Virus record (IMG/VR): IMGVR_UViG_3300025087_000057 | Origin: an uncultured virus (IMG/VR IMGVR_UViG_3300025087_000057) | Taxonomy: Duplodnaviria > Heunggongvirae > Uroviricota > Caudoviricetes | Direction: 5' to 3' (one strand) | Length of the DNA stretch: 64,000 bases | Part shown: in pieces, positions 1,069 to 14,924 of the stretch | Layout: each line of letters starts with the position of its first letter | How positions within the stretch are numbered: the stretch's first letter is position 1 | The notes under the pieces: generated by a model | What the model was told of the DNA's origin: nothing | The model's input: the letters and a program-made list of their open reading frames with translations, nothing else | The model's database searches: none | Program-made: the position numbers and the translations under genes

Positions 1069-2193
1069 TCAATGAAAATCAGTATTATTTTTTAACAATA
1101 AATACTCAGGATTTATATGTTTTAAGACCATTCTGCCACATCTTCCCGTTTTTTCTATTAGCGTTTTAATAACAATTCCTTCTTTAAGCGGTTGTTCCTT
1201 TGAAATTTCCGAACCCTTATTAAAAAATTCGTCTAACAACTCTGGGTTCCATGGTCCTATGTATAATGTATGAGGTAAAATAAAATCTACATTCATAACA
1301 ATATTATCAATATCATAAAACATGTCTCCAAAATCACCATCACTTAAATAGTGTGGTTCTTCCCCGTTTTCATAAACCATAATATCAAAAACCATTAAAC
1401 CTCTTTTGTTTTTCATTCCGTATGTATATCCGTTTTGAATACCATCACCAAAAATTTCCCCATAGATTACACATCCCATGGGAATAGCTTTTTTCAAATT
1501 ATATTTCTCTACCGCTTCTAAATAGACATTATTCGAATAGTAATGTTTTCGACGATTTGAAAATAACTGTAACTGTACATTATGAGAGCCGAAGACAAAC
1601 TCGTATTCAGGAAGAATGTTAAAGAATTTTTTTATCTTTTTCCACCATGTATTCGCTATGGTTGGAACCCATCCGGCTCTAAAGTTGGTTCCATGTACTT
1701 TTTCGGTGATAACAACCATCTCCCCATCAAAAATGTTAGGATAGTTTTTGATGTTCTCAATATCGGTATATTTTCTAAAGAGAGGATGGGTTTTTTTCTT
1801 GCTGACTTGGTATCCACCCTTCATGGTAATAGAGACAGTCGGTTCAAATTTAGTAATACCCAGAGTTTTAGTTACATCAATCCCCTCTTCTCTGGTTGTG
1901 ATTTGAACCGTATCCAAGTCAACTAAGATTCCCTGAGAAATAACACCCCTGAGTTTGATTGTCCTGACTCTACCTTTATCCAACTTTATTTTGGCATTGC
2001 CAAGGATTTTTTCTTCCAACTCAGGGGTGAGAATGGCATCAATCGGGATATAGACAGCAATATCTCCCGATTTGAATTGCCCCTTTCCAACAATACAAAC
2101 CCATCCTCTTATATAAGCCACTTCCAAACGGTCGGCATTCGGATGTGGTTCGATTCTATCGATTGAGACTGTTTCTACTTTAAGTGTTGACAT
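1069..2193 (-). CDS. ATP-dependent RNA ligase, DRB0094/Rnl5 family
   Basis: N-terminal HPNADRLE OB-like domain, motif I TEKVHGTN, YGEIFG, VFDI, EGIVIK, LKHINPEYL. Confidence 0.9.
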   Translation of the reverse strand: MSTLKVETVSIDRIEPHPNADRLEVAYIRGWVCIVGKGQFKSGDIAVYIPIDAILTPELEEKILGNAKIKLDKGRVRTIKLRGVISQGILVDLDTVQITTREEGIDVTKTLGITKFEPTVSITMKGGYQVSKKKTHPLFRKYTDIENIKNYPNIFDGEMVVITEKVHGTNFRAGWVPTIANTWWKKIKKFFNILPEYEFVFGSHNVQLQLFSNRRKHYYSNNVYLEAVEKYNLKKAIPMGCVIYGEIFGDGIQNGYTYGMKNKRGLMVFDIMVYENGEEPHYLSDGDFGDMFYDIDNIVMNVDFILPHTLYIGPWNPELLDEFFNKGSEISKEQPLKEGIVIKTLIEKTGRCGRMVLKHINPEYLLLKNNTDFH

Positions 2194-4310: not shown

Positions 4311-4329
4311 GACTTAACCTTTTTATATA

Positions 4330-4402
4330 CAGGTAGGGAAAGATTCGAACTTTCATTCTTCAGTTTTGGAGACTGATATTCTACCAATTTAATTACCTAC
4401 CT
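4330..4402 (-). tRNA. tRNA-Trp(CCA)
   Basis: Cloverleaf; anticodon arm TCAGT-CTCCAAA-ACTGA; T-loop TTCGAAT. Confidence 0.88.
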
Positions 4403-4407
4403 ATTTT

Positions 4408-4584
4408 TTATGGTTGAGAACTTTCAAATTCACTTTCTTTAATACAAAAAAGATGTTCAATAGGATATTTAATTCTTTCTTCACCATTCTCAACACAAAA
4501 CAAATCACCTTTAGTATAGGTTGATTTTGCATTTTTAAATACTATTGGTTGGGATGCTCTTTGAAACCAAATTTTTACTACCAT
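4408..4584 (-). CDS. small hypothetical protein
   Basis: ORF between tRNAs with GGAG SD; start moved to MVVKIWF to avoid overlapping the tRNA. Confidence 0.6.
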   Translation of the reverse strand: MVVKIWFQRASQPIVFKNAKSTYTKGDLFCVENGEERIKYPIEHLFCIKESEFESSQP

Positions 4585-4604
4585 TATACACTCCTTTTTA
4601 TTTA

Positions 4605-4678
4605 TCCCCACAGGTGGATTCGAACCACCATTGGAGGGTGTTTAAGACCCTTGCCTCTACCTGTTGGGCTATGTGGGG
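4605..4678 (-). tRNA. tRNA-Leu(TAA), short variable loop
   Basis: Acceptor CCCCACA/TGTGGGG+A; anticodon arm AGGGT-CTTAAAC-ACCCT. Confidence 0.85.
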
Positions 4679-5100
4679 GTTGTTTTTTTGGGTTTTACTT
4701 TTGTGGTACAAAACCCATTAAAAATGCCGTTACATTTTCTTGAACAGAAAGTATTTTTATAACCTTTTAATAATGGGGATTGATTTGCATATCTTTCAAA
4801 TTTTATTCCACAATTTTTACAAATAAATATTTTTGTTGTTCTGCCGTTTGGATATCTTATTTTTCCATGAAGTCTTGCATGCTCTTTTCTTTTCATGATT
4901 TTTATATTTTCTGGTCTATTATCATGTTTGTCGTGATTTATATGATGAGCAACTTCATCATCGTTTAGCAATCTTTTTATTTTATTTTCTGCAATAATGC
5001 GATGGGCAAGTACGTATCCATGTATATCGGCTTTTGGGTGTTCTGGAACAACTCCATATAAATACTCGCCTTTTTTAACAATTTTTTTTATAGTCCACAT
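4669..5100 (-). CDS. free-standing HNH homing endonuclease (HNH_3-like) with C-terminal Zn finger
   Basis: YVLAHRIIAE...VAHHINHDKHDNRPENI; CKNC...FCSRKC. Confidence 0.85.
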   Translation of the reverse strand: MWTIKKIVKKGEYLYGVVPEHPKADIHGYVLAHRIIAENKIKRLLNDDEVAHHINHDKHDNRPENIKIMKRKEHARLHGKIRYPNGRTTKIFICKNCGIKFERYANQSPLLKGYKNTFCSRKCNGIFNGFCTTKVKPKKTTPT

Positions 5101-5102
5101 AT

Positions 5103-5270
5103 TTATGTTTTCTCACCAGACTGAGCTACGAGAGATTGTTCCCTGTCTTCCCTTTTTTGATTACGACGAATCCATCTATTCCAATAGGTTTTGTACCATC
5201 TATTCCGTCTTTCTGGGAATCGACCATCACCGTTATATGCCCATCGAATATGTTTTCTACGTTTTTTCAT
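5103..5270 (-). CDS. small Arg/Lys/Trp-rich peptide (55 aa)
   Basis: Manual translation MKKRRKHIRWAYNGDGRFPERRNRWYKTYWNRWIRRNQK...; below the ORF-track cutoff. Confidence 0.45.
   Translation of the reverse strand: MKKRRKHIRWAYNGDGRFPERRNRWYKTYWNRWIRRNQKREDREQSLVAQSGEKT
5111..5134 (-). pseudogene. tRNA 5'-half remnant
   Basis: TCTCTCG-TA-GCTCAGTCTGGTGAGA (acceptor 5' strand plus D-arm) ends just before the HNH start. Confidence 0.5.
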
Positions 5271-5277
5271 AATTTTG

Positions 5278-5388
5278 TTTCCCCAACAGAACTTGAACCC
5301 GTAGTCGATGGATTAGTAAACAAATTTTAATTTATTAATACTTATGCAATTAGAAATCCATTACTTTATCCAATTGAGTTATGAGGAA
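5278..5388 (-). tRNA. tRNA-Arg(TCT) with ~37-nt intron at position 37/38
   Basis: Acceptor TTCCTCA/TGGGGAA; D-loop TTGGATA (A20); ATGGA-TTTCTA[37 nt]A-TCCAT; T-arm ACGGG-TTCAAGT-TCTGT. Confidence 0.75.
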
Positions 5389-5916
5389 TTATATTGATAT
5401 AATATAAAATCTATTGTCCATCCCTATATATTTGTCTAAAAGACCTAAAACACTATTCCACGAAAGTTCCCCATTTCCACAACCTGGTCTTGGGATAATT
5501 ATTTTTTTCCATTCATTTATGTCGGCTAAATAAATAATCTGCCTTAAAGACCTTTCTATAATTTCTAAAGTAGCTTTAGCAGCCCAACCTGGAACTATAT
5601 CACCACATTGGAATTTATCAGCCATGTGTTTTACCACATTGCTTTTATCTTCATAACAAATAGTTTGTCTTGGTTTTACTGGAAAAGAATAAATAGAATA
5701 TTTATTATATTTAATAAGTGGAAAAACGCTATTCCCAAAAAGAGAAATTCCCTGTCCCAAAATAGCCTCAAGATTTTGTCCCGGATATAATTTAACGGCT
5801 TGTTTGGCTACTCCCCTACCCATAACCCCATTTCCATTGGCTTTTACGAATCCATTAGTTGTGACACAAATTACATCGGCTTTTTGTTGAAAAATATTTC
5901 CAGAAATAAGATGCAT
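5389..5916 (-). CDS. macro domain (ADP-ribose binding/hydrolase) protein
   Basis: GNIF...ICVTTNG...VMGRGVAKQA...FPVK...IPRPGCGNGELSW; start moved to MHLISG. Confidence 0.85.
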   Translation of the reverse strand: MHLISGNIFQQKADVICVTTNGFVKANGNGVMGRGVAKQAVKLYPGQNLEAILGQGISLFGNSVFPLIKYNKYSIYSFPVKPRQTICYEDKSNVVKHMADKFQCGDIVPGWAAKATLEIIERSLRQIIYLADINEWKKIIIPRPGCGNGELSWNSVLGLLDKYIGMDNRFYIISI

Positions 5917-5936
5917 TTTCCATTCCTTTATAAAAG

Positions 5937-6022
5937 AGGAAGGTGTAGGATTTGAACCTACGGGGGTTGTTAACCCCAATAGTTTTCAAGACTATCGCCA
6001 TAAACCACTCGGCCAACCTTCC
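5937..6022 (-). tRNA. tRNA-Ser(TGA)
   Basis: ATAGT-CTTGAAA-ACTAT; long variable arm GGGGTT-AAC-AACCCC. Confidence 0.9.
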
Positions 6023-6030
6023 ATAATTAG

Positions 6031-6114
6031 CGGAAGGGGAAAGAATCGAACTCTCAGGCCAAATACATGGCCACAGATTAGCAATCTGTTGCATTACCAT
6101 TATGCTACCCTTCC
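6031..6114 (-). tRNA. tRNA-Ser(GCT)
   Basis: ACAGA-TTGCTAA-TCTGT; long variable arm; G73. Confidence 0.9.
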
Positions 6115-6116
6115 AA

Positions 6117-6247
6117 TGACAGGAGAAGGATTTGAACCTCCGAAGCTTGCGCGACAGATTTACTGAAGTAATTCATTACAGTCTGTTGCCATTACTGAAG
6201 AGGTGATAACTTCTTCCGTTGTTCACTAACCACTCGGCCATCCTGTC
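6117..6247 (-). tRNA. tRNA-Tyr(GTA) with two small inserts (D-loop 34 nt, anticodon loop 16 nt)
   Basis: Removing 6193-6226 and 6160-6175 restores GGCCGAGTGGTTAATGGC and ACAGA-CTGTAAA-TCTGT; acceptor GACAGGA/TCCTGTC+A. Confidence 0.8.
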
Positions 6248-6261
6248 TAATTCTTATTTAT

Positions 6262-6429
6262 TTGAGCAAAGTGGCAGGACTCGAACCTGCAAAAGGACTT
6301 TCTTGGTGGCATTTATTAGTTCCTCGGCCTTAAGGAATCCTTGCGGACGGCTTAGAGCAAGTAAGCCTACATCGCCACATCGCCGGTATTTCAACTTATC
6401 ATAGCGTTTACATTCCGCCACACTTTGCT
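6262..6429 (-). ncRNA. tRNA-ended ncRNA with a ~110-nt multibranch domain replacing the anticodon/variable arms
   Basis: Terminal stem AGCAAAGTG/CACTTTGCT; D-like GCG-GAATGTAAA-CGC; T-arm GCAGG-TTCGAGT-CCTGC; three internal hairpins. Confidence 0.65.
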
Positions 6430-6435
6430 TTTTTA

Positions 6436-6534
6436 GGAAACAGAAGGAGTATAGTATCTCATATAAGCCGATATCAAGCTTCCACCCCTTTGATACAGGC
6501 TTGTGGCTACCCTTTTATACCCCTAACCTGCTCC
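6436..6534 (-). ncRNA. rod-shaped structured RNA candidate with a central bubble
   Basis: Pairings GGAGCAG/CTGTTTCC, AGGGGTATA/TATACTCCT, AAGCC/GGCTT, TATCAA/TTGATA; no ORF. Confidence 0.45.
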
Positions 6535-6547
6535 ACCACGAATTTTT

Positions 6548-6651
6548 TGGCAAAGTCTCAACAGATTCGAACTGTTCATGCAACCAGCACTATCCCGGAT
6601 TCGAACCGGATGGGGTAGCTAACCCTCTTCGACCATCTCGTTGACTTTGCC
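6548..6651 (-). ncRNA. tRNA mimic with two D-like and two T arms
   Basis: 9-bp terminal stem GGCAAAGTC/GACTTTGCC+A; T-arms TCCGG-TTCGAAT-CCGGG and AACAG-TTCGAAT-CTGTT. Confidence 0.7.
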
Positions 6652-6665
6652 TATATATTATACGC
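6651..6665 (-). promoter_or_regulatory. promoter motif (GCGTATAATATATAG), probable +1 at the ncRNA 5' end
   Basis: TATAAT lies 5 nt upstream of the terminal stem; motif shared with three other sites. Confidence 0.6.
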
Positions 6666-6703
6666 TCAAATTACATTTTTCACTTATTTTTTTATAAAAA
6701 TTA

Positions 6704-6775
6704 TAGCTCTGCTGAGAATCGAACTCAGGTCGTAAGATTGAAATTCTCACATCCTATCCACTGGACGACAGAGCC
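6704..6775 (-). tRNA. tRNA-Glu(TTC)
   Basis: TGAGA-ATTTCAA-TCTTA; acceptor GGCTCTG/CAGAGCT. Confidence 0.88.
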
Positions 6776-6776
6776 A

Positions 6777-6852
6777 TGGAACGGTGACAGGGATTCAAAC
6801 CCTGACCCTCAGTTTGGAAGACTGACATGCTATCGTTAAACACCATCACCGC
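6777..6852 (-). tRNA. tRNA-Gly(TCC), CCA encoded
   Basis: TCAGT-CTTCCAA-ACTGA; acceptor GCGGTGA/TCACCGT+TCCA. Confidence 0.88.
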
Positions 6853-6854
6853 GA

Positions 6855-7070
6855 CTACATTTGTTTTAAAAACTTATCTCTTTCGTCAATATCTAAAAAT
6901 TGTTGGATAATTACAACCGCTTGTTGTAAACCTAACCCAATACCTCTATTAACACCATGTAGAAAAATTGCTTTTTCTTTTTCATCAAGATATTCTGGTT
7001 TCTTCTGAAGATAGTTTTGACTGATTTTTTTCGTATCATCAAGTATTTCTTTTAATTCTTGATTTGTCAT
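6855..7070 (-). CDS. hypothetical protein
   Basis: 71-aa ORF within the tRNA array. Confidence 0.6.
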   Translation of the reverse strand: MTNQELKEILDDTKKISQNYLQKKPEYLDEKEKAIFLHGVNRGIGLGLQQAVVIIQQFLDIDERDKFLKQM

Positions 7071-7202
7071 TTTTTCTTTCTTTTTTGCTTTTTATTTTTG
7101 GGGTCTAATTTATTTGTTTTCCCAGGTTCGTCACTATACGTTTTTTGTCTCCTGCCCTTATTGGCCGGAATCTTCTTTTGTTTTTTATCTCCCATTTTTA
7201 CC

Positions 7203-7553
7203 TCAACTATATAAATATTCTAAAATAATCTTAGCATCATCAATATTGATTTTACCGTCTTTATTTAAATCAAGACGATTAAACCAATTAGCGACATCAT
7301 TAAGGTCAACTAAGTTATCTCCATCGCTATCAAATGATTTAATAAAATTAACCAAAAAAGTAAAATCCTTAAGATTTACCGTTTCATCTTGATTAACATC
7401 CACGTCATTTTTTAAAATTTCCATCATCTTCCTCTTATATAAAAAACTTATTTCTTTTGATTCGCAAGATTTACATATTGGTAAATTATGAGAACAACTA
7501 CTTTCCATCTCTTTATGGCAAACAAAACATAGTTTGAGCAACGGTTTAAACAT
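7203..7553 (-). CDS. Zn-ribbon plus EF-hand/dockerin-like Ca-binding protein
   Basis: CFVC...CKSC, then loops DVNQDETVNLKD, DSDGDNLVDLND, DLNKDGKINIDD. Confidence 0.7.
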   Translation of the reverse strand: MFKPLLKLCFVCHKEMESSCSHNLPICKSCESKEISFLYKRKMMEILKNDVDVNQDETVNLKDFTFLVNFIKSFDSDGDNLVDLNDVANWFNRLDLNKDGKINIDDAKIILEYLYS

Positions 7554-7797
7554 ATATATTTATTTCCAAATCTTTTGGTTCAATTTTAAATATTTCCTTA
7601 TTTTTTTGCACCAATATAATAAAGTCCACCTTAGAACTGTCTACTAATCTGGCATTTAGATACTCTTGTCCAAATTTGGATTTTAATTTGTAACCTATTT
7701 TTACTTTATAACTTTTTGGTACATTGTCAAGTTTTGTATCAGACGGAAAATGATGAGTAATCATTGGTTTCCCATTGCTTTGTTTTGTATTTTTCAT
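7546..7797 (-). CDS. hypothetical protein
   Basis: 83-aa ORF in operon. Confidence 0.55.
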   Translation of the reverse strand: MKNTKQSNGKPMITHHFPSDTKLDNVPKSYKVKIGYKLKSKFGQEYLNARLVDSSKVDFIILVQKNKEIFKIEPKDLEINIYV

Positions 7798-7798
7798 T

Positions 7799-8002
7799 TT
7801 ATTTCCTTATTATATCCAATTCATCACAAAAAATTATTGAAATTGCATTATTAATATCTCCCCCCATCCGAGTATAATCATCACCGCCATCAATAAATAA
7901 ATTTTTACATTTGCACCATCTAAAATCATGTCGGTAAAATGAAAAAATTCTATCGTGACATTTGGGACATTCTATTCCATATTTAATGGGTTTATTTAAC
8001 AT
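7799..8002 (-). CDS. small Zn-binding phage protein
   Basis: CPKC...RHDFRWCKC...IDGG.DY.R motif, widespread in phages. Confidence 0.7.
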   Translation of the reverse strand: MLNKPIKYGIECPKCHDRIFSFYRHDFRWCKCKNLFIDGGDDYTRMGGDINNAISIIFCDELDIIRK

Positions 8003-8586
8003 TATTGCCTCAAATCATAAGTATAAATATGTTTTCCTAAAGTATCTAAATAATATGCAACACCCAATTTAAGCATACTCTTTAGTTTTTCTGCAAATGG
8101 TTTTAGTTTCCCTTTATATTTTGTTCTAATGGCTTTATCGTGAAAAGTTTGTCCATTAAAGCGAATTACTTTTCCTGGTTTTGTCATTCCAAGGTATTTA
8201 AAATTAGAGGCCTTATAAATAGTCCCTACATGACCATAAGTAGCATCAGCATATGAAATAACCATTTTAATGTTCGTGTTTTTTTGGAGCCATTTTAAAG
8301 TCTTTCCTATAAAATAACTTTCAGTATTTCGCGGGGTATTATCAATACAACATAACCTTCTTAATTCAATTATATCTTCCTGTTTATTAACATATCTTTT
8401 CCATACATTAGCCATTGCTATTTTACCATATACCATGGCTCCTATTAAAGCATCTCCATCATATAAGCCAAAACAATAATCACTAATAATACCATTCATA
8501 TTATGGGAATAATGCCACAACTCTATAAAATTAGAAATTTCTTTTCTAGTACATGGCTTAACTGTGTATGTCCTAACCTTTCCCAT
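8002..8586 (-). CDS. Mom-like GNAT acetyltransferase (DNA modification)
   Basis: HYSH...IELRRLC...RNTESYFI...ISYAD...GHVGTIYKASNF.Y.G; start moved to MGKVR. Confidence 0.85.
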   Translation of the reverse strand: MGKVRTYTVKPCTRKEISNFIELWHYSHNMNGIISDYCFGLYDGDALIGAMVYGKIAMANVWKRYVNKQEDIIELRRLCCIDNTPRNTESYFIGKTLKWLQKNTNIKMVISYADATYGHVGTIYKASNFKYLGMTKPGKVIRFNGQTFHDKAIRTKYKGKLKPFAEKLKSMLKLGVAYYLDTLGKHIYTYDLRQ

Positions 8587-8614
8587 AAATACCCTTTTAA
8601 TAAAAAATTTTAAA

Positions 8615-8681
8615 CGGGAGCAACGGGATTCGACCCCCTGACGTGACAGGCCAGTGGTTGTATCCATTTAACTATGCCCCC
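8615..8681 (-). pseudogene. tRNA-Asp(GTC) pseudogene
   Basis: CTGGC-CTGTCAC-GTCAG intact; variable loop and part of the 5' T-stem deleted (GTCAG-GGGGTCGAATCCCGT). Confidence 0.7.
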
Positions 8682-8950
8682 TCGGAATCTTCACAAGATT
8701 CATAAAACATATATCCACATTTATTACATTCTATTCTTAATGTATCCCTATGTTCCATTGGTTCAAGTTCCATTTCTTTAGGAATATCCACAACTGTAAA
8801 ATGTCCCATTGGTTTAAGTTTTATTTCTTTAGGAATATACACAACTGTAAATTGGTCGTCGCCCTCTATACAATTGGGATATTTTATAAACCTTGCTTTA
8901 CCACATTTAGGGCATTTGGTAATTGTTTTATATCTTTCCACTTCCCCCAA
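8672..8950 (-). CDS. Zn-ribbon protein with a 17-aa internal duplication
   Basis: CPKC...CNKC; FTVVYIPKEIKLKPMGH / FTVVDIPKEMELEPMEH. Confidence 0.6.
   Translation of the reverse strand: MGEVERYKTITKCPKCGKARFIKYPNCIEGDDQFTVVYIPKEIKLKPMGHFTVVDIPKEMELEPMEHRDTLRIECNKCGYMFYESCEDSEGA
8751..8852. repeat. 51-bp tandem duplication (2 imperfect copies)
   Basis: 8751-8801 and 8802-8852 share ATTTCTTTAGGAATAT.CACAACTGTAAA. Confidence 0.85.
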
Positions 8951-9269
8951 ACTCCTCTCTGTATTTTGCTTTTTTAGTTATCTTGTACAAAATCAAATAA
9001 GGAAACCAATGCCAAAATGTAATCGTAAAATATTTTCCATATTCCTGTAATTCCTTTCTTTGGATATAATGTTGAACAACATCATCAATCATCAACCATC
9101 CCCCAAATCCCAACAAAAAAATTACAAGCCACTCGTACCATCCATTCATCGAGAGATTAAAAAAAATCATAACAAAACCAATTAAACACAATATCATTCC
9201 AGTAAAGAAATGATGAGATTCAAAAGAACTAAATTTAGTTCTGCCTATTGTATAATATCTATAATACAT
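8928..9269 (-). CDS. membrane protein
   Basis: HHFFTG...GGWLMIDD..QH; 2-3 TM segments. Confidence 0.65.
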   Translation of the reverse strand: MYYRYYTIGRTKFSSFESHHFFTGMILCLIGFVMIFFNLSMNGWYEWLVIFLLGFGGWLMIDDVVQHYIQRKELQEYGKYFTITFWHWFPYLILYKITKKAKYREEFGGSGKI

Positions 9270-9513
9270 TAGTTATTGCTCTTTTTAGAATTTAATAACG
9301 CTTCAGCCAAAATCTTTGGATGAATATTTTTTAGTTTAGCCATTTTCTTGATGTTGTCAATCAATTTCATAAAATTATCCCTTCAAAAATAATAAAATCA
9401 ATTAAAGCAACTAATAGTAAGTTTTCATTTTCTTTGTTGATTGTTAATGTCTCTGATAGCATATAAAATTATTCCTATATACATTATACTTAACACAAAT
9501 GGTATTAAAAAAA

Positions 9514-9586
9514 CAGGGGAGAAGGGAATCGAACCCCTATCTGGAGAGTCAAAGTCTCCTGTTATATCCATTTTCACTACTCCCCT
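9514..9586 (-). tRNA. tRNA-Gln(TTG)
   Basis: GGAGA-CTTTGAC-TCTCC; acceptor AGGGGAG/CTCCCCT. Confidence 0.88.
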
Positions 9587-9587
9587 A

Positions 9588-9663
9588 TGGTCTGGGCAAC
9601 AGGACTTGAACCTGTAACACTTTGGTCCCAAACCAAAGACTCTACCATTTGAGCTATACCCAG
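9588..9663 (-). tRNA. tRNA-Pro(TGG), CCA encoded
   Basis: TTTGG-TTTGGGA-CCAAA; C1-G72, A73. Confidence 0.9.
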
Positions 9664-10086
9664 TTAATTGAAAAAACCAAAATCTATAATCGCAGCCGGA
9701 GCTACGCAGTCCTGAGTTGTCTTAAAGATAACATTAGAAATGGGTGACCAATTGATAATTTCATCACCAACCCTCATGGCAAAATAATAAGTTTGATTAC
9801 ATTCTAAATTAATTGTAGTTGTCCATGATTCTGATGTCCCGGCAGGAAGAGGAATAAGGGCGGTACAACCGGGAACTTGAGTAGCACTTAAAAATGCTGT
9901 ACTATCGGCCAATGAATTCTTTCCATATCGAATGTCGTAATGGGAAGCGGTTCCGGTAGTACCATCATCTCCACTTGCCGTCCATACAAAAGTCAATTCT
10001 ACATTCTTGGTTTGTGCGTTACATGCTATATTAAACAACACCAACGCACTGATAACTAAAAAAAATACAGTCAAACACTTTCTCAT
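9664..10086 (-). CDS. secreted fibronectin type III-like protein
   Basis: Signal peptide (…ACNA/Q); WTASGDDG.TGTA..YDIRY and YYFAMRV.DE..NWS.ISN. Confidence 0.75.
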   Translation of the reverse strand: MRKCLTVFFLVISALVLFNIACNAQTKNVELTFVWTASGDDGTTGTASHYDIRYGKNSLADSTAFLSATQVPGCTALIPLPAGTSESWTTTINLECNQTYYFAMRVGDEIINWSPISNVIFKTTQDCVAPAAIIDFGFFN

Positions 10087-10105
10087 TATAAATCCTTTCT
10101 TTTTA

Positions 10106-10178
10106 AGCCCTTGACAGGAATCGAACCTGTTGTATCCTGTTTACAAGACAGGTGCTTTGCCGATTAAGCTACAAGGGC
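10106..10178 (-). tRNA. tRNA-Thr(TGT)
   Basis: CCTGT-CTTGTAA-ACAGG; acceptor GCCCTTG/CAAGGGC. Confidence 0.9.
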
Positions 10179-10182
10179 AATT

Positions 10183-10257
10183 TGGTGGAGTCGGAGAGAA
10201 TCAAACTCTCAATCTTCTGCTTGCAAAGCAGGTGCTTTCTCGTTTAGCTACGACCCC
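10183..10257 (-). tRNA. tRNA-Ala(TGC), CCA encoded
   Basis: G3:U70; CTGC-TTTGCAA-GCAG. Confidence 0.88.
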
Positions 10258-10266
10258 GTTACTTTA

Positions 10267-10337
10267 TGGCAGGGATGGGATTCGAACCCATGAACTCGGC
10301 GTATGAGACCGATAAGTTACCGTTACTTCACCCTGCT
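10267..10337 (-). tRNA. tRNA-Met(CAT), initiator-like
   Basis: TCGGT-CTCATAC-GCCGA; A1xC72 mismatch; A11-U24. Confidence 0.82.
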
Positions 10338-10578
10338 AAACTTCATCAATAATATCCTCTGAAAATTCTGACGGAAATTCATCATTATCCTGAGTGTATG
10401 CATAAGCATAGTAAAACTCATACGTAATATCTGCAACGGACTGTTCTCCACGAAGAAAAACTTGAAGAGCATCTAACAAAATATATGTATCTATTTTGGC
10501 ACACTCTGTCATAAGATGTCCATTAAAGTACAACGCTTCCCATTCATCCCCCTCAACAATTTTGACTTCCAATATCAT
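10336..10578 (-). CDS. acidic hypothetical protein
   Basis: 80-aa ORF. Confidence 0.6.
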   Translation of the reverse strand: MILEVKIVEGDEWEALYFNGHLMTECAKIDTYILLDALQVFLRGEQSVADITYEFYYAYAYTQDNDEFPSEFSEDIIDEV

Positions 10579-10799
10579 GATGGCAGACTCACTTTCCGAA
10601 TCTCCATGGATTCCAAAAGAGGCTCATTTTGCCAATTCTTCTGTAACTTTTTGGCATCAGGTATTGAATCAAAAAAAGCCGTTGAGCCATAAAATTCTTT
10701 TACCTTAGTTTTTTCCGTAGGAATCAGGGGAAGCCAATAAGAGTCCCCACTCTTGAACACTCCCCAAACTCCATACTTTTCGAATAAGTTTTTCTTCAT
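10575..10799 (-). CDS. hypothetical protein
   Basis: 74-aa ORF with AAGGA SD. Confidence 0.6.
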   Translation of the reverse strand: MKKNLFEKYGVWGVFKSGDSYWLPLIPTEKTKVKEFYGSTAFFDSIPDAKKLQKNWQNEPLLESMEIRKVSLPS

Positions 10800-10815
10800 A
10801 AATTCCTTTCTTTTA

Positions 10816-10888
10816 TATTGGGAGAGGGATTCGAACCCTCACTGGATAGGGTCTAAGCCTATTGCCTCTACCGTTGGGCTACCCCAAT
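10816..10888 (-). tRNA. tRNA-Leu(TAG), short variable loop
   Basis: ATAGG-CTTAGAC-CCTAT; A73. Confidence 0.85.
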
Positions 10889-11698
10889 AATATCTCCAAT
10901 GTTACTTGACCCAAAACTAAACTGTAGTCCATTTCCATGGTGACACATGCTTGCCACCATTTGCAATAAAGAATCAGCCTTTTTATAATCAATCTTAGAT
11001 GGTAAAACTGATTTTTCTCTTATATTTTGTAAATCACTGAATCCATTTTCGGCCAACTCTTTTACTTCTTCCAATGAATATTTCCCCTCTTTGATATCCA
11101 TTAAAAATTGATGGTCATTATCTCTAAAAATTTTAACTTTTCCGGTTTCAAGAATTTCTTTTCCCATTGTTAGCAAACGGACTAAATGAGAGGCATTCTT
11201 CGTATCGTAGCCATATCTTTCAACAAGAGCCTTTCTTTTTTCTCCCATATATCCCTCTCTATGGCCGTGTTGCATTTTTTGTAATTGAGAGTAGGCATAT
11301 CCACTAAAAGCCTGATAAATTCCATCAGTATAAAGGAACTCTTCTCTGTGGTCAATTAATATTTGCCCTGCTACTGTAATTGTTTTATAAAATTCTCTTT
11401 CATTCCATAACAAAGAAAATATATTAGGGTTACATTTCATTAACAATCGAAAAAACTTTTTTACCTCATACGAAACGATGTCATTGGGGTTATCTTTTGT
11501 TGGCAATTGTTCATATTGTTCTATTTTATTTAATCCATAATAATAAGATACCGGAGCCGAAAATACCCCAATCCAATCAATATCGTCAATACCATGCTCA
11601 TCCATTGAGGGTTTATAAAGTCCATGAGCAATACTTCCCCTTAAACAATACAACAAGTGTCTTTGCCCAATTTCTTCTTCTAATTTTGAGTCTATCAT
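10868..11698 (-). CDS. YcgL/Nuc-transf family (pol-beta-like) nucleotidyltransferase
   Basis: GSIAHG...DDID..GVF; KCNPN; YDTKNASHLVRLL. Confidence 0.85.
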   Translation of the reverse strand: MIDSKLEEEIGQRHLLYCLRGSIAHGLYKPSMDEHGIDDIDWIGVFSAPVSYYYGLNKIEQYEQLPTKDNPNDIVSYEVKKFFRLLMKCNPNIFSLLWNEREFYKTITVAGQILIDHREEFLYTDGIYQAFSGYAYSQLQKMQHGHREGYMGEKRKALVERYGYDTKNASHLVRLLTMGKEILETGKVKIFRDNDHQFLMDIKEGKYSLEEVKELAENGFSDLQNIREKSVLPSKIDYKKADSLLQMVASMCHHGNGLQFSFGSSNIGDIIGVAQR

Positions 11699-11699
11699 C

Positions 11700-11845
11700 T
11701 TTCCTCTGTTTTTATGGTTCTATATATATAACGCACAAAAAAGAATAATATGCCAAAAAAAATGAAATTATTTCTAAAAAATGGTCATTTTTTGTGTTTT
11801 TTTTGCGTATTATAGTATAGGACACAAAAATGGTAAGGAGGTTTT
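11700..11845. promoter_or_regulatory. divergent promoter region at the strand switch
   Basis: Back-to-back motifs GCGTTATATATATAG (minus, 11720-11734) and GCGTATTATAGTATAG (plus, 11805-11820). Confidence 0.65.
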
Positions 11846-12349
11846 ATGAAGAAAGTGCTTATCATTGCTTTTGTTATGGTTTTAGGCACGATTTTTGCTA
11901 CAAATTTATATTCTCAGACTAACCCATTAGGTAACAGTGCTTTTGCTGGTGGTGGTTACGATAGTAATGCCGGATTTATTTTTAATGCCGGATTGGGTCA
12001 AAAAGTTAGTAGTTTTCTGTGGACATTTGAAACTTTTGATATTGCCCTTGATAAAGACCTTGGGGCTGATTTGGCGGCTATGACAAGTCTTAATTTTATA
12101 GACCCCAAACTGGCTAATTTAAAGGTTGGTCTATTGGCAAGCCCAGGCGTTAATTGGGTTGCTAACGGGGAAACAGATGAAAATATTGATTATTTAGCTT
12201 ATTTCCGAGGAGCCGGGGGTATTATTGCAATTTATAACTTTACCGAAAGAATCGGTGTTATGGCGTTGAGTAAATATAAATTTGCCCTGAAGGATAATCA
12301 ATATGAAAAACAATGGGCTGTTAGAGGAAACTTAGTGGTTAATTTTTAA
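11846..12349 (+). CDS. secreted small outer-membrane beta-barrel-like protein
   Basis: Signal peptide, amphipathic beta-strands, C-terminal ...VRGNLVVNF. Confidence 0.6.
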   Translation: MKKVLIIAFVMVLGTIFATNLYSQTNPLGNSAFAGGGYDSNAGFIFNAGLGQKVSSFLWTFETFDIALDKDLGADLAAMTSLNFIDPKLANLKVGLLASPGVNWVANGETDENIDYLAYFRGAGGIIAIYNFTERIGVMALSKYKFALKDNQYEKQWAVRGNLVVNF

Positions 12350-12448
12350 GGGGCTAAATGGTGTCGATTTGGGTGTTGTGACTCTTTGGGAGTTTGCCTG
12401 ACAAGGCGGTAACACCCGAAGACCTCGGTTCGATTCCGAGTAGCTCCA
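12350..12448 (+). ncRNA. minimal tmRNA-like RNA (tRNA-like domain only)
   Basis: GGGGCTA/TAGCTCC+A with G3:U70; stemless D-region ending TCGA; 11-bp helix; GAC linker; T-arm CTCGG-TTCGATT-CCGAG. Confidence 0.8.
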
Positions 12449-12455
12449 TTTTATT

Positions 12456-12578
12456 ATGAAAACAAAAAAAACAAAACAAGAAAAACAGTTTGAAAAAATT
12501 GTTAAAGAAATTAAGAAAAAAAAGAGTAAAAAAGAAGAAAAACAAGAATTCCGTAATCTTATAAGGGAATTCGAGTAA
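12456..12578 (+). CDS. Lys/Glu-rich 40-aa peptide
   Basis: Manual translation MKTKKTKQEKQFEKIVKEIKKKKSKKEEKQEFRNLIREFE. Confidence 0.4.
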   Translation: MKTKKTKQEKQFEKIVKEIKKKKSKKEEKQEFRNLIREFE

Positions 12579-12618
12579 TTTTTACCCATTTTTGTGTAAT
12601 TGGAAGTCTACTGTATAC

Positions 12619-12639
12619 GGTGGGGAGAAATTCCCCACC
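12619..12639 (+). terminator. GC-rich hairpin
   Basis: GGTGGGGA-GAAAT-TCCCCACC; similar hairpins at 38955 and 59737. Confidence 0.45.
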
Positions 12640-12660
12640 ATTTAAAATTAGGAGAAAAAT

Positions 12661-12936
12661 ATGGATTTAACACAATTAGTACCAGTCATTATTTCGTTTT
12701 TATCTGGCCCCGTTATTGCCCCTATCGCGGAATGGATTAAATCAAAAATTCCAGAGGGGTCGCCGCTAAAAACTTTGGGAGTTGTCTCTATTTTGAACGC
12801 TTGTGTTGTAGTAATTCTAATGCTTAGTTTTGGTTTAGAACTAAACCTTTTGAATATTTTATCTCTTGCTTTTGGAACAAGCTCAACTGCCCAATTATCG
12901 CATGTTATTAAAAAGAATGTGGCAGAGAAAGAATAA
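12661..12936 (+). CDS. holin-like small membrane protein
   Basis: Three hydrophobic segments, charged C-terminus. Confidence 0.5.
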   Translation: MDLTQLVPVIISFLSGPVIAPIAEWIKSKIPEGSPLKTLGVVSILNACVVVILMLSFGLELNLLNILSLAFGTSSTAQLSHVIKKNVAEKE

Positions 12937-13200
12937 CGTTATATATAATATTATATATAACATTAATTAACGTCAGTCTCTGGAGTACTATATATTACGT
13001 TATTCATCATAGTAGTCGTCAAGTCTCTAAAGAAGTCGTCAAGTCTATGAATATTATTTTCTTAATTTACGTCTTCTTAGAAATTAATATTAATAAAATA
13101 ATATTCTCGACGACTCCATTTTTTAGGAACGTTTGATAAAAGGGAAGAACAAAATTAACATTCTGTTGTTAGTTGAGTAATTAGTAGAAATTTTGCAAAC
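12937..13200. other. candidate replication origin / regulatory region
   Basis: 24-bp perfect palindrome at 12938-12961; AGTCGTCAAGTCT direct repeats at 13014 and 13034; AT-rich tract. Confidence 0.4.
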
Positions 13201-13959
13201 ATGAGGAAGGGAAGTTTTATGTTACCACCTATCAGCATTATTATGCCAGTATATAATCAACGTAAACATCTTCTTGAGGTTGCCGCGCGGTCGGCTATCA
13301 ATCAGATTGGGGTCGAGGGTGAACTTATTATTATTAACGATGGTTCTACAGACAATTGCATGGAAGTCCTTAATTTTGTACCATCGAGCAGTAATATAGA
13401 AATAAAAGTTATAAGTAGAGTTGAAAATGGTGGTGTTGCCGCCGCATTAAACGATGGGATTAAGGCTTCTCAAAATGAATATATTGCATGGTTGCCTTCC
13501 GATGATTATTTTATGCCTGAAAAAACATTGGTTCAATTATCTAATATGATAGAAGCAAAAACTTTGTTTTCTTTTACTGCCTTCCATCAACTGGTTTGGG
13601 AAAATGGAGTTCTTACTGAAGTTCAGGCAGTTCCCACCCCCTACCCATCGGGAAAAATTGGGGCAGTCCAGTTACATCAAGCATTATTAAATCGATTTCC
13701 TTCGTGTTTTCTTAACGGGGCATCAATTATGGTACATAAAGAAGTTTTTAATAAGGTTGGTTTGTTTGATGAGGATTTAAAATATACCCAGGATTACGAT
13801 ATGTGGTTAAAAATAACGGAATATTATGACACTTTTGTTAATGCTGACGCTTTAATGGTCAAAAATATCCACGACAATCAGATGGAATTTATCTTTAAAA
13901 ATAAGACCGAACAAAGAGCAATAGAAGAGGGGATTTTAAAAAAGAGGTATTTATCTTAA
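13201..13959 (+). CDS. glycosyltransferase family 2
   Basis: ISIIMPVYN...IINDGSTD...WLPSDD...QDYDMW. Confidence 0.92.
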   Translation: MRKGSFMLPPISIIMPVYNQRKHLLEVAARSAINQIGVEGELIIINDGSTDNCMEVLNFVPSSSNIEIKVISRVENGGVAAALNDGIKASQNEYIAWLPSDDYFMPEKTLVQLSNMIEAKTLFSFTAFHQLVWENGVLTEVQAVPTPYPSGKIGAVQLHQALLNRFPSCFLNGASIMVHKEVFNKVGLFDEDLKYTQDYDMWLKITEYYDTFVNADALMVKNIHDNQMEFIFKNKTEQRAIEEGILKKRYLS

Positions 13960-14924
13960 TGAATGTTGCTTTTATTTCCGATAAAGATGGAGGAGGAACC
14001 TTGGGGCATTATTCTTCCTTGATTAACAAGTTTACTTCTCATCATAGCGACTGTATTGTTAATTACAATCCGTATCAATTTAAAGTAGATTATGAGAGTA
14101 GGGACTCAGATAACGGCAAAATAGGTACAATATGTCGGTATATTTTAACAAATGCTGACATTTTGGTTTTTAACAATGGCTATGAATCGGTTGATTTCGC
14201 ACAACGGGCATTTGAGTGGAAATTTGATGTCACTCAAAAAAACTTTTTCTTTTATGGTGATATAAATTACTTTGAGGAAAAAAGAAAATATAACCTAAAA
14301 GTTCCCGTCCTTACTACTCAATACATTATTAAGAATTTCTTTGATACATATGTTTACGAGGCAGACAAAACTATTTATATTCCAATTGCTATTGATACTG
14401 GTTCCGCTAATTATAATAACAAAATAAAATATGCCAATAAAATTGGTATTGTTCATGCTCCCGCAAGTCGTCAGAATAAAAATACCGAAGGATTTCTTTC
14501 AGTTAATTCATATGTAGAAATGTTTTTTGATAGTGCAACTTTTGATATTATAGAAAATGTTTCTTGGAAAAAGTCTTTATCAGATAAAAAAAAATATCAA
14601 ATCGGAGTTGACCATATTAATCCCAATTATGGGTATTATGGCATAAGTTCACTGGAAAATTCCGCCATTGGATTATTTAATTGTGTTAATCTCCCAATAG
14701 ACGAGGCAATTTATTTATGTAGTATGGTTGAATGTGATATTATGCCATGGGCATTTACATCTGATGAAGGAGCTTTATATGAAGTTGTTGGTGCATATAT
14801 TAAGAGTCCCGAAAGCCTTTTTCAAGACAGGGTAAGAACGAAGAAATGGTTTGATGAATCATGGGATGGCAAAAAAATTATCAATAAAGTAATGCAAGCT
14901 ATGGAGGAAAGATGTACGATTTAG
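13959..14924 (+). CDS. GT-B fold glycosyltransferase-like protein
   Basis: IVHAPASRQNKNT...GVDHI...YGISSLENSAIG; paralogous to 15280-16302. Confidence 0.7.
   Translation: MNVAFISDKDGGGTLGHYSSLINKFTSHHSDCIVNYNPYQFKVDYESRDSDNGKIGTICRYILTNADILVFNNGYESVDFAQRAFEWKFDVTQKNFFFYGDINYFEEKRKYNLKVPVLTTQYIIKNFFDTYVYEADKTIYIPIAIDTGSANYNNKIKYANKIGIVHAPASRQNKNTEGFLSVNSYVEMFFDSATFDIIENVSWKKSLSDKKKYQIGVDHINPNYGYYGISSLENSAIGLFNCVNLPIDEAIYLCSMVECDIMPWAFTSDEGALYEVVGAYIKSPESLFQDRVRTKKWFDESWDGKKIINKVMQAMEERCTI

What the first reader, a model, noticed from the sequence alone, without database searches (positions are those of the whole stretch)
12350..12448. A 99-nt tmRNA reduced to its tRNA-like domain, with no tag ORF or pseudoknots
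Seen: acceptor GGGGCTA/TAGCTCC with G3:U70 and A73, an unpaired D-region AATGGTGTCGA, an 11-bp helix TTTGGGTGTTG/TAACACCCGAA, a GAC linker and a T-arm. These are the hallmarks of the SmpB-binding tRNA-like domain (TLD) of tmRNA, in one-piece order. The helix closes only ~31 nt, with two small hairpins (GACTC/GAGTT; GCCT-GACA-AGGC). Established: bacterial tmRNAs carry a few hundred nt with the tag reading frame here, while tag-less tmRNAs are known mainly from jakobid/oomycete mitochondria. Inference: a phage TLD-only RNA could titrate host SmpB or engage stalled ribosomes without adding a degradation tag. I recognise no smpB in the window.
Basis: partly seen in the sequence, partly recalled or inferred. 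Interest (0 to 1): 0.88.

Follow-up and report, generated by a model that had tools for sequence, protein, structure and literature searches.

The report
Phage tag-less mini-tmRNA gene
This large, tRNA-rich phage carries a real 99-base gene for only the alanine-accepting, tRNA-like end of the bacterial ribosome-rescue RNA (tmRNA); the type is already published for one mycobacteriophage, is common but almost never annotated in phages, and probably competes with the host's rescue-and-tag system.

Summary
Window 12350-12448 (+) has a 7-bp acceptor with G3:U70 and A73, a stemless D-region, a 12-pair P2 helix over a tandem G.A/A.G, a 31-nt two-hairpin cap, and a T-arm. Rfam tmRNA matches at 49.8 bits (cut-off 47, E 1e-16), with 286 model positions (the mRNA-like domain and pseudoknots) missing.

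It is not a decaying deletion. The one sister phage found (terminase 65% identical) has a 108-nt tag-less copy at the same spot. Of its 12 P2 pairs, 8 changed on both sides and none is broken.

It belongs to a large phage family:
- P2 positions 3-9 pair in 621 of 679 cells, against 34-46% when the partner is shifted.
- A model built from 15 such RNAs, without ours, scores ours at 52.7 bits and the published DS6A 'TLD only' tmRNA at 57.1.

The kind is in print (PMC4131195, PMC11915505), and this scan found it before on other DNA. No smpB is in the 117-kb record.

Most likely it is a tag-less competitor of host tmRNA for SmpB. This is a new member of a known kind, of moderate interest.

The parts
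12350..12356 (+). acceptor stem, 5' strand (GGGGCTA), G3 of the G3:U70 pair
   Evidence: aligned to RF00023 positions 1-7
12357..12367 (+). stemless D-region AATGGTGTCGA. The GG..TCGA motif is typical of the tmRNA TLD. The final GA forms the tandem G.A/A.G with 12421-12422.
12368..12378 (+). P2 helix, 5' strand (TTTGGGTGTTG)
   Evidence: All 12 pairs are kept in the sister phage, 8 of them changed on both sides.
12379..12409 (+). 31-nt cap in place of the roughly 290-nt mRNA-like domain. It holds two small hairpins (GACTC/GAGTT; GCCT-GACA-AGGC), has no conserved reading frame, and is not conserved in shape in the sister copy.
12410..12420 (+). P2 helix, 3' strand (TAACACCCGAA)
12421..12423 (+). 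GAC: the GA partner of the tandem non-Watson-Crick pairs, plus the C linker
   Evidence: linker C in 81 of 97 family members
12424..12440 (+). T-arm (CTCGG TTCGATT CCGAG)
12441..12448 (+). acceptor stem, 3' strand (TAGCTCC, with U70) and discriminator A73; CCA is not encoded
11846..12349 (+). Context: a 167-aa ORF with a signal peptide and no Pfam or PHROG match. Its TAA stop directly abuts G1 of the RNA, so the two are probably co-transcribed and the RNA is released by RNase P (inferred).
   Evidence: The sister phage has a 164-aa signal-peptide ORF 3 nt upstream of its copy, with no significant sequence similarity.
12456..12578 (+). Context: a 40-aa lysine-rich ORF 7 nt downstream, followed by a GC hairpin at about 12616-12640
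   Evidence: The scan's terminator rule did not call the hairpin.
4329..10889 (-). Context: an array of 12 tRNA genes on the opposite strand, interleaved with RNA-repair-type genes (RNA ligase, phosphatase, RlaP nucleotidyltransferase)

Best explanation
Window 12350-12448 (+) is a functional phage gene for a 'TLD-only' (CDS-less) tmRNA. It is a 99-nt RNA that keeps the alanine-accepting, SmpB-binding tRNA-like domain of tmRNA and replaces the tag message and pseudoknots with a 31-nt cap.

Inferred pathway:
1. It is transcribed with the upstream ORF.
2. RNase P cuts it out at G1, it is trimmed at the 3' end, and the host enzyme adds CCA.
3. Host AlaRS charges it with alanine through G3:U70 and A73.
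4. Host SmpB (and EF-Tu) binds it.

Because it has no resume codon, it occupies SmpB and stalled ribosomes in place of host tmRNA. Proteins made from broken or non-stop mRNAs during infection are then not given the degradation tag.

Shown here: the RNA's architecture, its conservation and covariation, its family membership, and the absence of a phage smpB.
Inferred: processing, charging, SmpB binding and the effect on tagging.
For: - Rfam tmRNA matches at 49.8 bits, above the gathering score of 47, E 1e-16, end to end, with the middle 286 model positions deleted.
- The sister phage (terminase 65% identical) has a 108-nt tag-less copy in the same position, after a signal-peptide ORF. Between the two copies, 8 of 12 P2 pairs, 1 of 7 acceptor pairs and 1 of 5 T-stem pairs changed on both sides, and none is broken.
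- Family covariation over 97 unique sequences, in an alignment anchored on invariant motifs rather than fitted to the structure: P2 positions 3-9 are canonical in 621 of 679 cells (91.5%). Shifted partners give 34-46% and partners taken from other sequences give 49%. Acceptor pairs 5-7 are canonical in 93-94 of 97 with 4-6 pair types. T-stem pairs 1-3 are canonical in 96 of 97.
- Model R1, built from 15 other phage mini-TLDs, scores ours at 52.7 bits and the published DS6A TLD-only tmRNA at 57.1.
- In a scan that left the acceptor free, all 13 hits with a perfect 7-bp acceptor (of 31 unique hits) had G3:U70 and A73. This argues that chargeability is selected.
- No SmpB, Pth or RF-1/ArfB gene is in the record. 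None of the 121 ORFs flanking 64 family loci belongs to such a family. The RNA must therefore work with host factors.
- In print (passages read): the DS6A sequence is 'little more than the TLD', and a similar molecule strongly inhibits tmRNA, perhaps by titrating SmpB (PMC4131195). PMC11915505 states that the DS6A form inhibits endogenous tmRNA in E. coli.
- A Logan contig from another sample covers 12219-12453 with 0 differences.
Against: - There are no data on expression, processing, charging or binding for this RNA.
- The Rfam score is only 2.8 bits above the cut-off.
- The unconstrained minimum-energy fold (-43.0 kcal/mol) is not the TLD fold (-39.1 kcal/mol when constrained).
- CCA is not encoded, and no CCA-adding head domain was found in the record.
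- Only one sister phage was found, and the host is unknown.
- The 95-sequence family set was collected with a pattern that fixes G1-G4 and CTCCA, so it says nothing on G3:U70. The unbiased sample is small: 13 sequences. Two further hits with 6 of 7 acceptor pairs lack G3:U70, and 16 hits have no acceptor at all.
- The experimental paper behind the inhibition claim (Mao et al. 2009) is not held. I saw it only as cited, and the two citing papers describe the experiment differently.
- Conserved Ala identity fits a ribosome-entering rescuer at least as well as a passive sponge.
Confidence: 0.6

Rival explanations
1. It is a productive tag-less rescuer rather than an inhibitor. Ala-TLD with host SmpB and EF-Tu enters stalled ribosomes, accepts the nascent chain (adding one Ala, or several in repeated rounds), and frees ribosomes through drop-off or a host release factor. 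This raises ribosome recycling while host mRNAs are being destroyed.
For: - The AlaRS identity set was conserved in 13 of 13 unbiased family members with a full acceptor, in the sister copy and in DS6A.
- The phage invests heavily in translation upkeep: 12 tRNAs, an RNA ligase, a phosphatase and a RlaP nucleotidyltransferase.
- Recalled, not checked here: isolated TLD with SmpB accepts peptidyl transfer in vitro, and jakobid mitochondrial tmRNAs lack a message.
Against: - No Pth or ArfB-type release factor is in the record, nor next to 64 family loci.
- Without a phage SmpB, extra TLD can only displace host tmRNA from a limiting protein.
- The only reported experiment, seen as cited, found inhibition 'whether or not chargeable' (PMC4131195).
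Confidence: 0.25
2. It is a cis-acting tRNA-like punctuation and stability element. The structure exists mainly as an RNase P/Z processing site that separates and stabilises the flanking mRNAs.
For: - The stop codon of the upstream ORF abuts G1 (0 nt; 3 nt in the sister), and the next ORF starts 7 nt after A73.
- No convincing promoter lies between them.
- In some family loci the RNA sits between the prohead protease and capsid genes.
Against: Any tRNA-like fold would serve as a processing site. Here the tmRNA-specific D-region, the tandem G.A/A.G and the Ala identity are conserved. Only 14 of 64 family loci have tRNA neighbours, and contexts vary.
Confidence: 0.07
3. It is a decoy for host defence. 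The RNA draws off nucleases or sensors that act on tRNA or tmRNA (for example systems with SmpB-like domains), rather than acting on trans-translation itself.
For: - Defence systems with SmpB-like OB folds, predicted to bind tmRNA-like RNA, are described (PMC11090510, passages).
- The phage carries a tRNA-repair gene set.
Against: Nothing in the window or in family neighbourhoods links it to a defence or counter-defence gene. This is pure inference.
Confidence: 0.05
4. It is a decaying remnant of a full-length phage tmRNA, an assembly artefact, or an attP-type fragment of the host tmRNA gene.
For: Earlier notes of this scan report cases where sister phages carry the full-length gene at the same spot. 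3' fragments of tmRNA genes do occur in viral contigs: several of the 16 acceptor-less hits look like these.
Against: - The sister copy is also short and its stems are kept by compensatory changes.
- Both the 5' and 3' halves are present and intact.
- A contig from another sample spans it unchanged.
- The short form is a large covarying family.
Confidence: 0.03

Closest known systems
'TLD only' / CDS-less tmRNA of Mycobacterium phage DS6A (JN698994, 28478-28557; Hudson, Lau & Williams 2014, PMC4131195; PMC11915505)
   Same: - Phage-encoded and in one-piece order.
- GGGG.../...CTCCA acceptor with G3:U70 and A73, a stemless GG..TCGA D-region, tandem G.A/A.G, a P2 helix closed by a short cap, and a T-arm.
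- No tag frame and no pseudoknots.
- Both match the same family model R1: DS6A 57.1 bits, ours 52.7.
- Neither is annotated or called by standard tools.
   Different: - Ours is 99 nt against 80.
- P2 has 12 pairs against 7.
- The cap is a 31-nt two-hairpin branch rather than a 19-nt loop with one small hairpin.
- G+C is 54% against 70%.
- It lies in an unrelated, large, tRNA-rich phage from groundwater or soil metagenomes with an unknown host.
- It sits on the strand opposite the tRNA array, directly after an ORF.
Bacterial one-piece tmRNA (Rfam RF00023)
   Same: The tRNA-like domain aligns end to end and scores above Rfam's gathering threshold.
   Different: It lacks the mRNA-like domain (resume codon, tag frame, stops) and all pseudoknots: 286 of 374 model positions are deleted.
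Message-less organellar tmRNAs (jakobid mitochondrial mt-tmRNA; Mallomonadaceae plastid forms of about 65 bp, PMC11915505)
   Same: They are reduced to a tRNA-like domain with no tag frame and depend on an SmpB encoded elsewhere.
   Different: They are organellar, vertically inherited and the only tmRNA in their compartment. Ours is a phage gene that coexists with, and presumably competes with, a full host tmRNA. I did not compare sequences.
Full-length phage tmRNAs (Bxz1-like mycobacteriophages, Bacillus phage G, Melnitz and pelagimyophages; PMC4131195, PMC9004378)
   Same: They are phage-borne ssrA-type genes.
   Different: Those encode a tag peptide. This one cannot.

Membership tests
tmRNA (RF00023), full molecule | tRNA-like domain: 7-bp acceptor with G3:U70, A73, stemless D-region, T-arm | tested here: met
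   49.8 bits against a gathering score of 47
tmRNA (RF00023), full molecule | mRNA-like domain with a resume codon, tag reading frame and stop | tested here: not met
   286 model positions are deleted and only 31 nt lie inside P2. ARAGORN finds no tmRNA or tag. The only GCN-stop (GCC-TGA) is not conserved in the sister copy.
tmRNA (RF00023), full molecule | pseudoknots PK1-PK4 | tested here: not met
   There is no room for them. The cap folds as two small hairpins.
tmRNA (RF00023), full molecule | binds SmpB, is alanylated, acts on stalled ribosomes | not testable with these tools
   Biochemistry is needed. No phage smpB was found.
Phage TLD-only (CDS-less) tmRNA, DS6A type | one-piece TLD whose P2 helix is closed by a short cap without a tag frame | tested here: met
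Phage TLD-only (CDS-less) tmRNA, DS6A type | matches the same sequence-and-structure profile as the published DS6A molecule | tested here: met
   R1 was built without either sequence. DS6A scores 57.1 bits and ours 52.7; the window's true tRNAs score 26.9 or less.
Phage TLD-only (CDS-less) tmRNA, DS6A type | maintained by selection: covariation, and a short form in relatives | tested here: met
   sister copy
Phage TLD-only (CDS-less) tmRNA, DS6A type | inhibits host tmRNA tagging | not testable with these tools
   Known only from statements in PMC4131195 and PMC11915505. Mao et al. 2009 is not held.
tRNA (RF00005) | D-stem and an anticodon arm with an anticodon | tested here: not met
   ARAGORN makes no call. 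tmRNA is the best family of the tRNA clan at this place. There is no D-stem, and a 12-pair helix with a branched cap stands in place of the anticodon arm.
mt-tmRNA (Rfam mitochondrial tmRNA family) | scores best against, or above threshold for, the mitochondrial model | tested here: inconclusive
   In one search two lower-scoring matches of the same clan were suppressed and not named. RF00023 was the best.

The most novel reading that the evidence does not exclude
The RNA is not a passive sponge. It is one member of a phage-wide, tag-less ribosome-rescue device with hundreds of unannotated members. Charged with alanine, and with host SmpB and EF-Tu, it would enter ribosomes stalled on mRNAs broken during infection or by host defence nucleases. 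It would take over the nascent chain without adding a degron, so that phage proteins escape tagging while ribosomes are recycled. Such RNAs would also be natural ligands for defence systems that carry SmpB-like domains.
Probability: 0.25. Interest if true: 0.7.

Novelty: new member of a known kind. Interest (0 to 1): 0.4.

Why it matters
Trans-translation is the main bacterial ribosome-rescue and protein-tagging pathway. A phage RNA that mimics only its entry module is a cheap way (about 100 nt) to take over or blunt that pathway.

The literature I could search names one such phage molecule, DS6A.

This member adds three things:
- a long-stem, branched-cap variant;
- a pair of diverged sister phages that show purifying selection on the short form;
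- a setting in a phage with a full tRNA and RNA-repair toolkit.

It gives a defined, testable RNA for asking whether phages inhibit tagging or run their own tag-less rescue.

Tried and rejected
- blastn of window 11000-14000 against cultured phages found no match.
- Relatives sought with the RlaP protein and the major head protein: none found. The terminase gave one sister and only relatives of about 31% identity among cultured phages, so no host could be named.
- My narrow DNA pattern in viral contigs gave 0 hits because I set the first gap too small, so it could not even match the sister. The corrected pattern in metagenome contigs returned only the window's own contig and one unrelated 105-nt member on a 1,164-bp contig.
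- A MAFFT alignment of ours and the sister misaligned the D-region and P2, so the fold_alignment counts for P2 are not usable. I used motif-anchored offsets instead.
- The MAFFT alignment of 86 family members staggered the 5' ends and was not used for pair counts.
- In the acceptor-free scan I set the gap too long (33-42 where the typical value is 28-33). It therefore sampled only the longer members: 41 loci, 31 unique.
- Sequencing runs: no RNA holder is listed. When laid, the contigs from X1 and X4 gave only 21-nt side matches to another record, and X8 gave nothing. Only X7 gave short contigs across the gene.
- Searches of the record for Pth, RF-1/ArfB and the PolyA_pol head domain found nothing.
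- Flanking-gene survey of 64 family loci: 14 of 121 ORFs had any Pfam match and none was related to trans-translation.
- Micro-tag idea: GCC-TGA in the cap. Rejected as not conserved in the sister and buried in a hairpin.
- Literature searches found no paper describing a widespread phage TLD-only family. Mao et al. 2009 is not held, one search was malformed, and I consulted no supplements.
- Our-findings look-ups by place and by sequence returned nothing for this genome.

Full report
**Observation.**
- Acceptor 12350-12356 GGGGCTA pairs with 12441-12447 TAGCTCC, giving G3:U70. The discriminator A73 is at 12448.
- The D-region 12357-12367 has no stem.
- An 11-bp helix, 12368-12378 / 12410-12420, extends by a T.G pair to 12 pairs. 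It sits on a tandem G.A/A.G formed by the GA of TCGA and the GA of the GAC linker.
- A 31-nt cap (12379-12409) holds two small hairpins.
- The T-arm is at 12424-12440.
- CCA is not encoded; TTT follows.

Rfam's tmRNA model RF00023 matches 12350-12451 end to end at 49.8 bits (gathering score 47, E 1.2e-16 for the window). Of its 374 positions, 286 are deleted and replaced by 16 inserted bases. ARAGORN finds 12 tRNAs, all on the minus strand at 4329-10889, and makes no call here. The 102-nt stretch folds far better than shuffles (z -4.88). The unconstrained optimum (-43.0 kcal/mol) is not the TLD fold (-39.1 kcal/mol when constrained).

**Setting.** The window is part of a 117,395-bp linear virus record, estimated 68% complete.
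- Minus strand: a tRNA array mixed with an RNA ligase, HNH endonuclease, phosphatase, Mom-like protein and a RlaP nucleotidyltransferase.
- Plus strand: a 167-aa signal-peptide ORF whose TAA stop abuts G1 of the RNA, then the RNA, then a 40-aa lysine-rich ORF. Further on come glycosyltransferases, MazG, ribonucleotide reductase, a sliding clamp, a sigma factor, terminase, portal and the major head protein.
- No convincing promoter separates the ORF and the RNA, so co-transcription followed by RNase P release is the simplest reading. This is inferred.
- The record holds no SmpB, Pth, RF-1/ArfB or PolyA_pol head domain.
- The host is unknown. The best cultured-phage terminases are about 31% identical, and the DNA occurs in groundwater and soil metagenome runs.

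**Is it a decaying deletion or an artefact?** Only one relative of the phage could be found, through the terminase (65% identity). The RlaP and head-protein searches found none. That sister record has an RF00023 match of 49 bits. The gene is 108 nt to A73 and again lies directly after a signal-peptide ORF of similar size (3-nt spacer). The two ORFs are not detectably similar.

I compared the two RNAs by offsets from invariant motifs.
- P2, 12 positions: 4 pairs identical, 8 changed on both sides, 0 broken.
- One acceptor pair and one T-stem pair also changed on both sides.
- The caps differ in length (31 against 39 nt) and in predicted shape, and they share no reading frame.

The short form is therefore old and under selection for its stems, not for its cap. 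A 244-nt Logan contig from another sample of the same study covers 12219-12453 with no difference. This is weak support against an assembly loss.

**A family.** The strict pattern (GGGG, 5-8 nt, GGNNTCGA, 35-65 nt, GGTTCGANTCC, 6 nt, CTCCA) cannot match a full-length tmRNA.
- 95 sequences are unique. 86 are 76-82 nt and 9 are 85-106 nt.
- The same pattern hit only 44 loci in one genome for each of 185,579 prokaryote species. These are spread over many phyla and lie mostly on MAG contigs.

Pair counts over 97 unique sequences, including ours and the sister, were anchored on TCGA and the T-arm so the alignment is not fitted to the structure.

| Element | Canonical pairs | Control or note |
|---|---|---|
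| P2 positions 3-9 | 621 of 679 (91.5%) | shifted partners 37.8%, 34.0%, 46.1%; partners from other sequences 49% (max 53%) |
| Acceptor pairs 5-7 | 94, 94 and 93 of 97 | 4-6 pair types |
| T-stem pairs 1-3 | 96 of 97 each | |
| First two P2 positions | 2 and 5 of 97 | i.e. G.A and A.G, as in tmRNA |

A covariance model built from 15 of these sequences, without ours, gave the following scores.

| Sequence | R1 score (bits) |
|---|---|
| DS6A published 'TLD only' tmRNA (JN698994 28478-28557) | 57.1 |
| Metagenome member L128 | 52.9 |
| Ours | 52.7 (E 2.3e-10) |
| Sister | 44.8 |
| The window's real tRNAs | 26.9 or less |

The DS6A region carries no annotation in its GenBank record. Rfam scores DS6A at 43.2 bits, below threshold, and several family members at 44-72 bits. 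ARAGORN made no call at 61 of 64 unique family loci and proposed a longer tmRNA at 3. 14 of the 64 loci have tRNA neighbours within 1.5 kb.

**Alanine identity.** The first pattern fixes the acceptor, so I ran a second scan that left it free. I set the gap too long, so it sampled only the longer members: 41 loci, 31 unique.
- 13 have a perfect 7-bp acceptor, and all 13 have G3:U70 and A73.
- 2 have 6 of 7 pairs and lack G3:U70.
- 16 have no acceptor. Several of these look like 3' fragments of tmRNA genes.

The sister and DS6A, both found without the pattern, also keep G3:U70 and A73. The sample is small, but it argues that chargeability is selected.

**Mechanism.** No protein partner travels with these RNAs. 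Of 121 ORFs flanking 64 loci, 14 have any Pfam match and none concerns trans-translation. The RNA must therefore use host AlaRS, SmpB and EF-Tu.

The best-supported reading is a tag-less competitor of host tmRNA. It binds SmpB, and probably stalled ribosomes, but cannot supply a tag, so tagging is suppressed during infection.

This matches what is in print for the DS6A type. [quoted passage not shown] PMC11915505 (passages) says the DS6A form inhibits endogenous tmRNA in E. coli. I could not read the primary paper.

The conserved Ala identity keeps alive the bolder variant, a productive tag-less rescuer. I put that at about 0.25. Cis-processing, defence-decoy and remnant readings are less likely, for the reasons listed under rival explanations.

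**Comparison and novelty.**
- It works like, and is a member of, the phage 'TLD-only / CDS-less tmRNA' type known from DS6A.
- It is not a full tmRNA, since it has no message and no pseudoknots, and it is not a tRNA.
- It differs from DS6A in its longer P2 (12 against 7 pairs), its branched 31-nt cap, its lower G+C, its unrelated phage, and its position outside the tRNA array directly after an ORF.
- My literature searches found only the DS6A mentions and no description of a widespread phage family. I consulted no supplements.
- This scan has noted the same kind on at least eight other genomes. Two of those notes reported full-length genes in sister phages. Here the sister is short too.

**Verdict.** This is a new member of a known kind, with interest 0.4.

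Noticed in passing
window 5278-5388 (-): A tRNA match (RF00005, 38.7 bits) of 111 nt with a 39-nt insertion in the anticodon loop. ARAGORN does not call it. It may be an intron-bearing tRNA inside the phage tRNA array.
   Followed up: partly
window 1069-2193, 5389-5979, 10868-11698 (all -): RNA ligase, phosphatase and RlaP nucleotidyltransferase genes are interleaved with the 12 tRNA genes. This looks like a tRNA/RNA-repair toolkit.
   Followed up: partly
window 23375-26323 (+): The ribonucleotide reductase large subunit (982 aa) has HNH-endonuclease matches at about residues 364-480. This suggests an intein or an inserted homing endonuclease.
   Followed up: no
L125 2-1486 (-) (sister phage): The gene just downstream of the sister's mini-tmRNA is a RecA-like protein interrupted by a large insert with an HNH-like motif (intein-like). 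In our window that position holds only a 40-aa lysine-rich ORF.
   Followed up: no
window 12347-12350; L125 about 1611-1617: The stop codon of the upstream signal-peptide ORF touches G1 of the RNA (0 nt; 3 nt in the sister). RNase P release would leave that mRNA ending at or just past its stop codon, which could itself make it a trans-translation substrate.
   Followed up: no
L011/L038, L059, L082: ARAGORN proposes 324-396-nt tmRNAs with tag peptides that end at the same 3' end as the mini-TLD. These could be nested genes or false calls; I did not resolve which.
   Followed up: no
L041, L007, L035, L017: In one group of viral contigs the mini-tmRNA lies next to the structural genes: in L041 between the prohead protease and major capsid protein genes, beside the capsid gene in L007 and L035, and beside the protease gene in L017. 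That places it inside the late structural operon.
   Followed up: no
L063 1501-1602, L112 301-403: Two long-cap members share a cap with a GCT-AAA-...-TAG micro-frame of 2-4 codons. This could be a vestigial or minimal tag frame.
   Followed up: no
window 10183-10257 (-): The phage also encodes its own tRNA-Ala(UGC) with an encoded CCA, whereas the mini-tmRNA lacks CCA. 3 of the 12 tRNAs end in an encoded CCA.
   Followed up: partly
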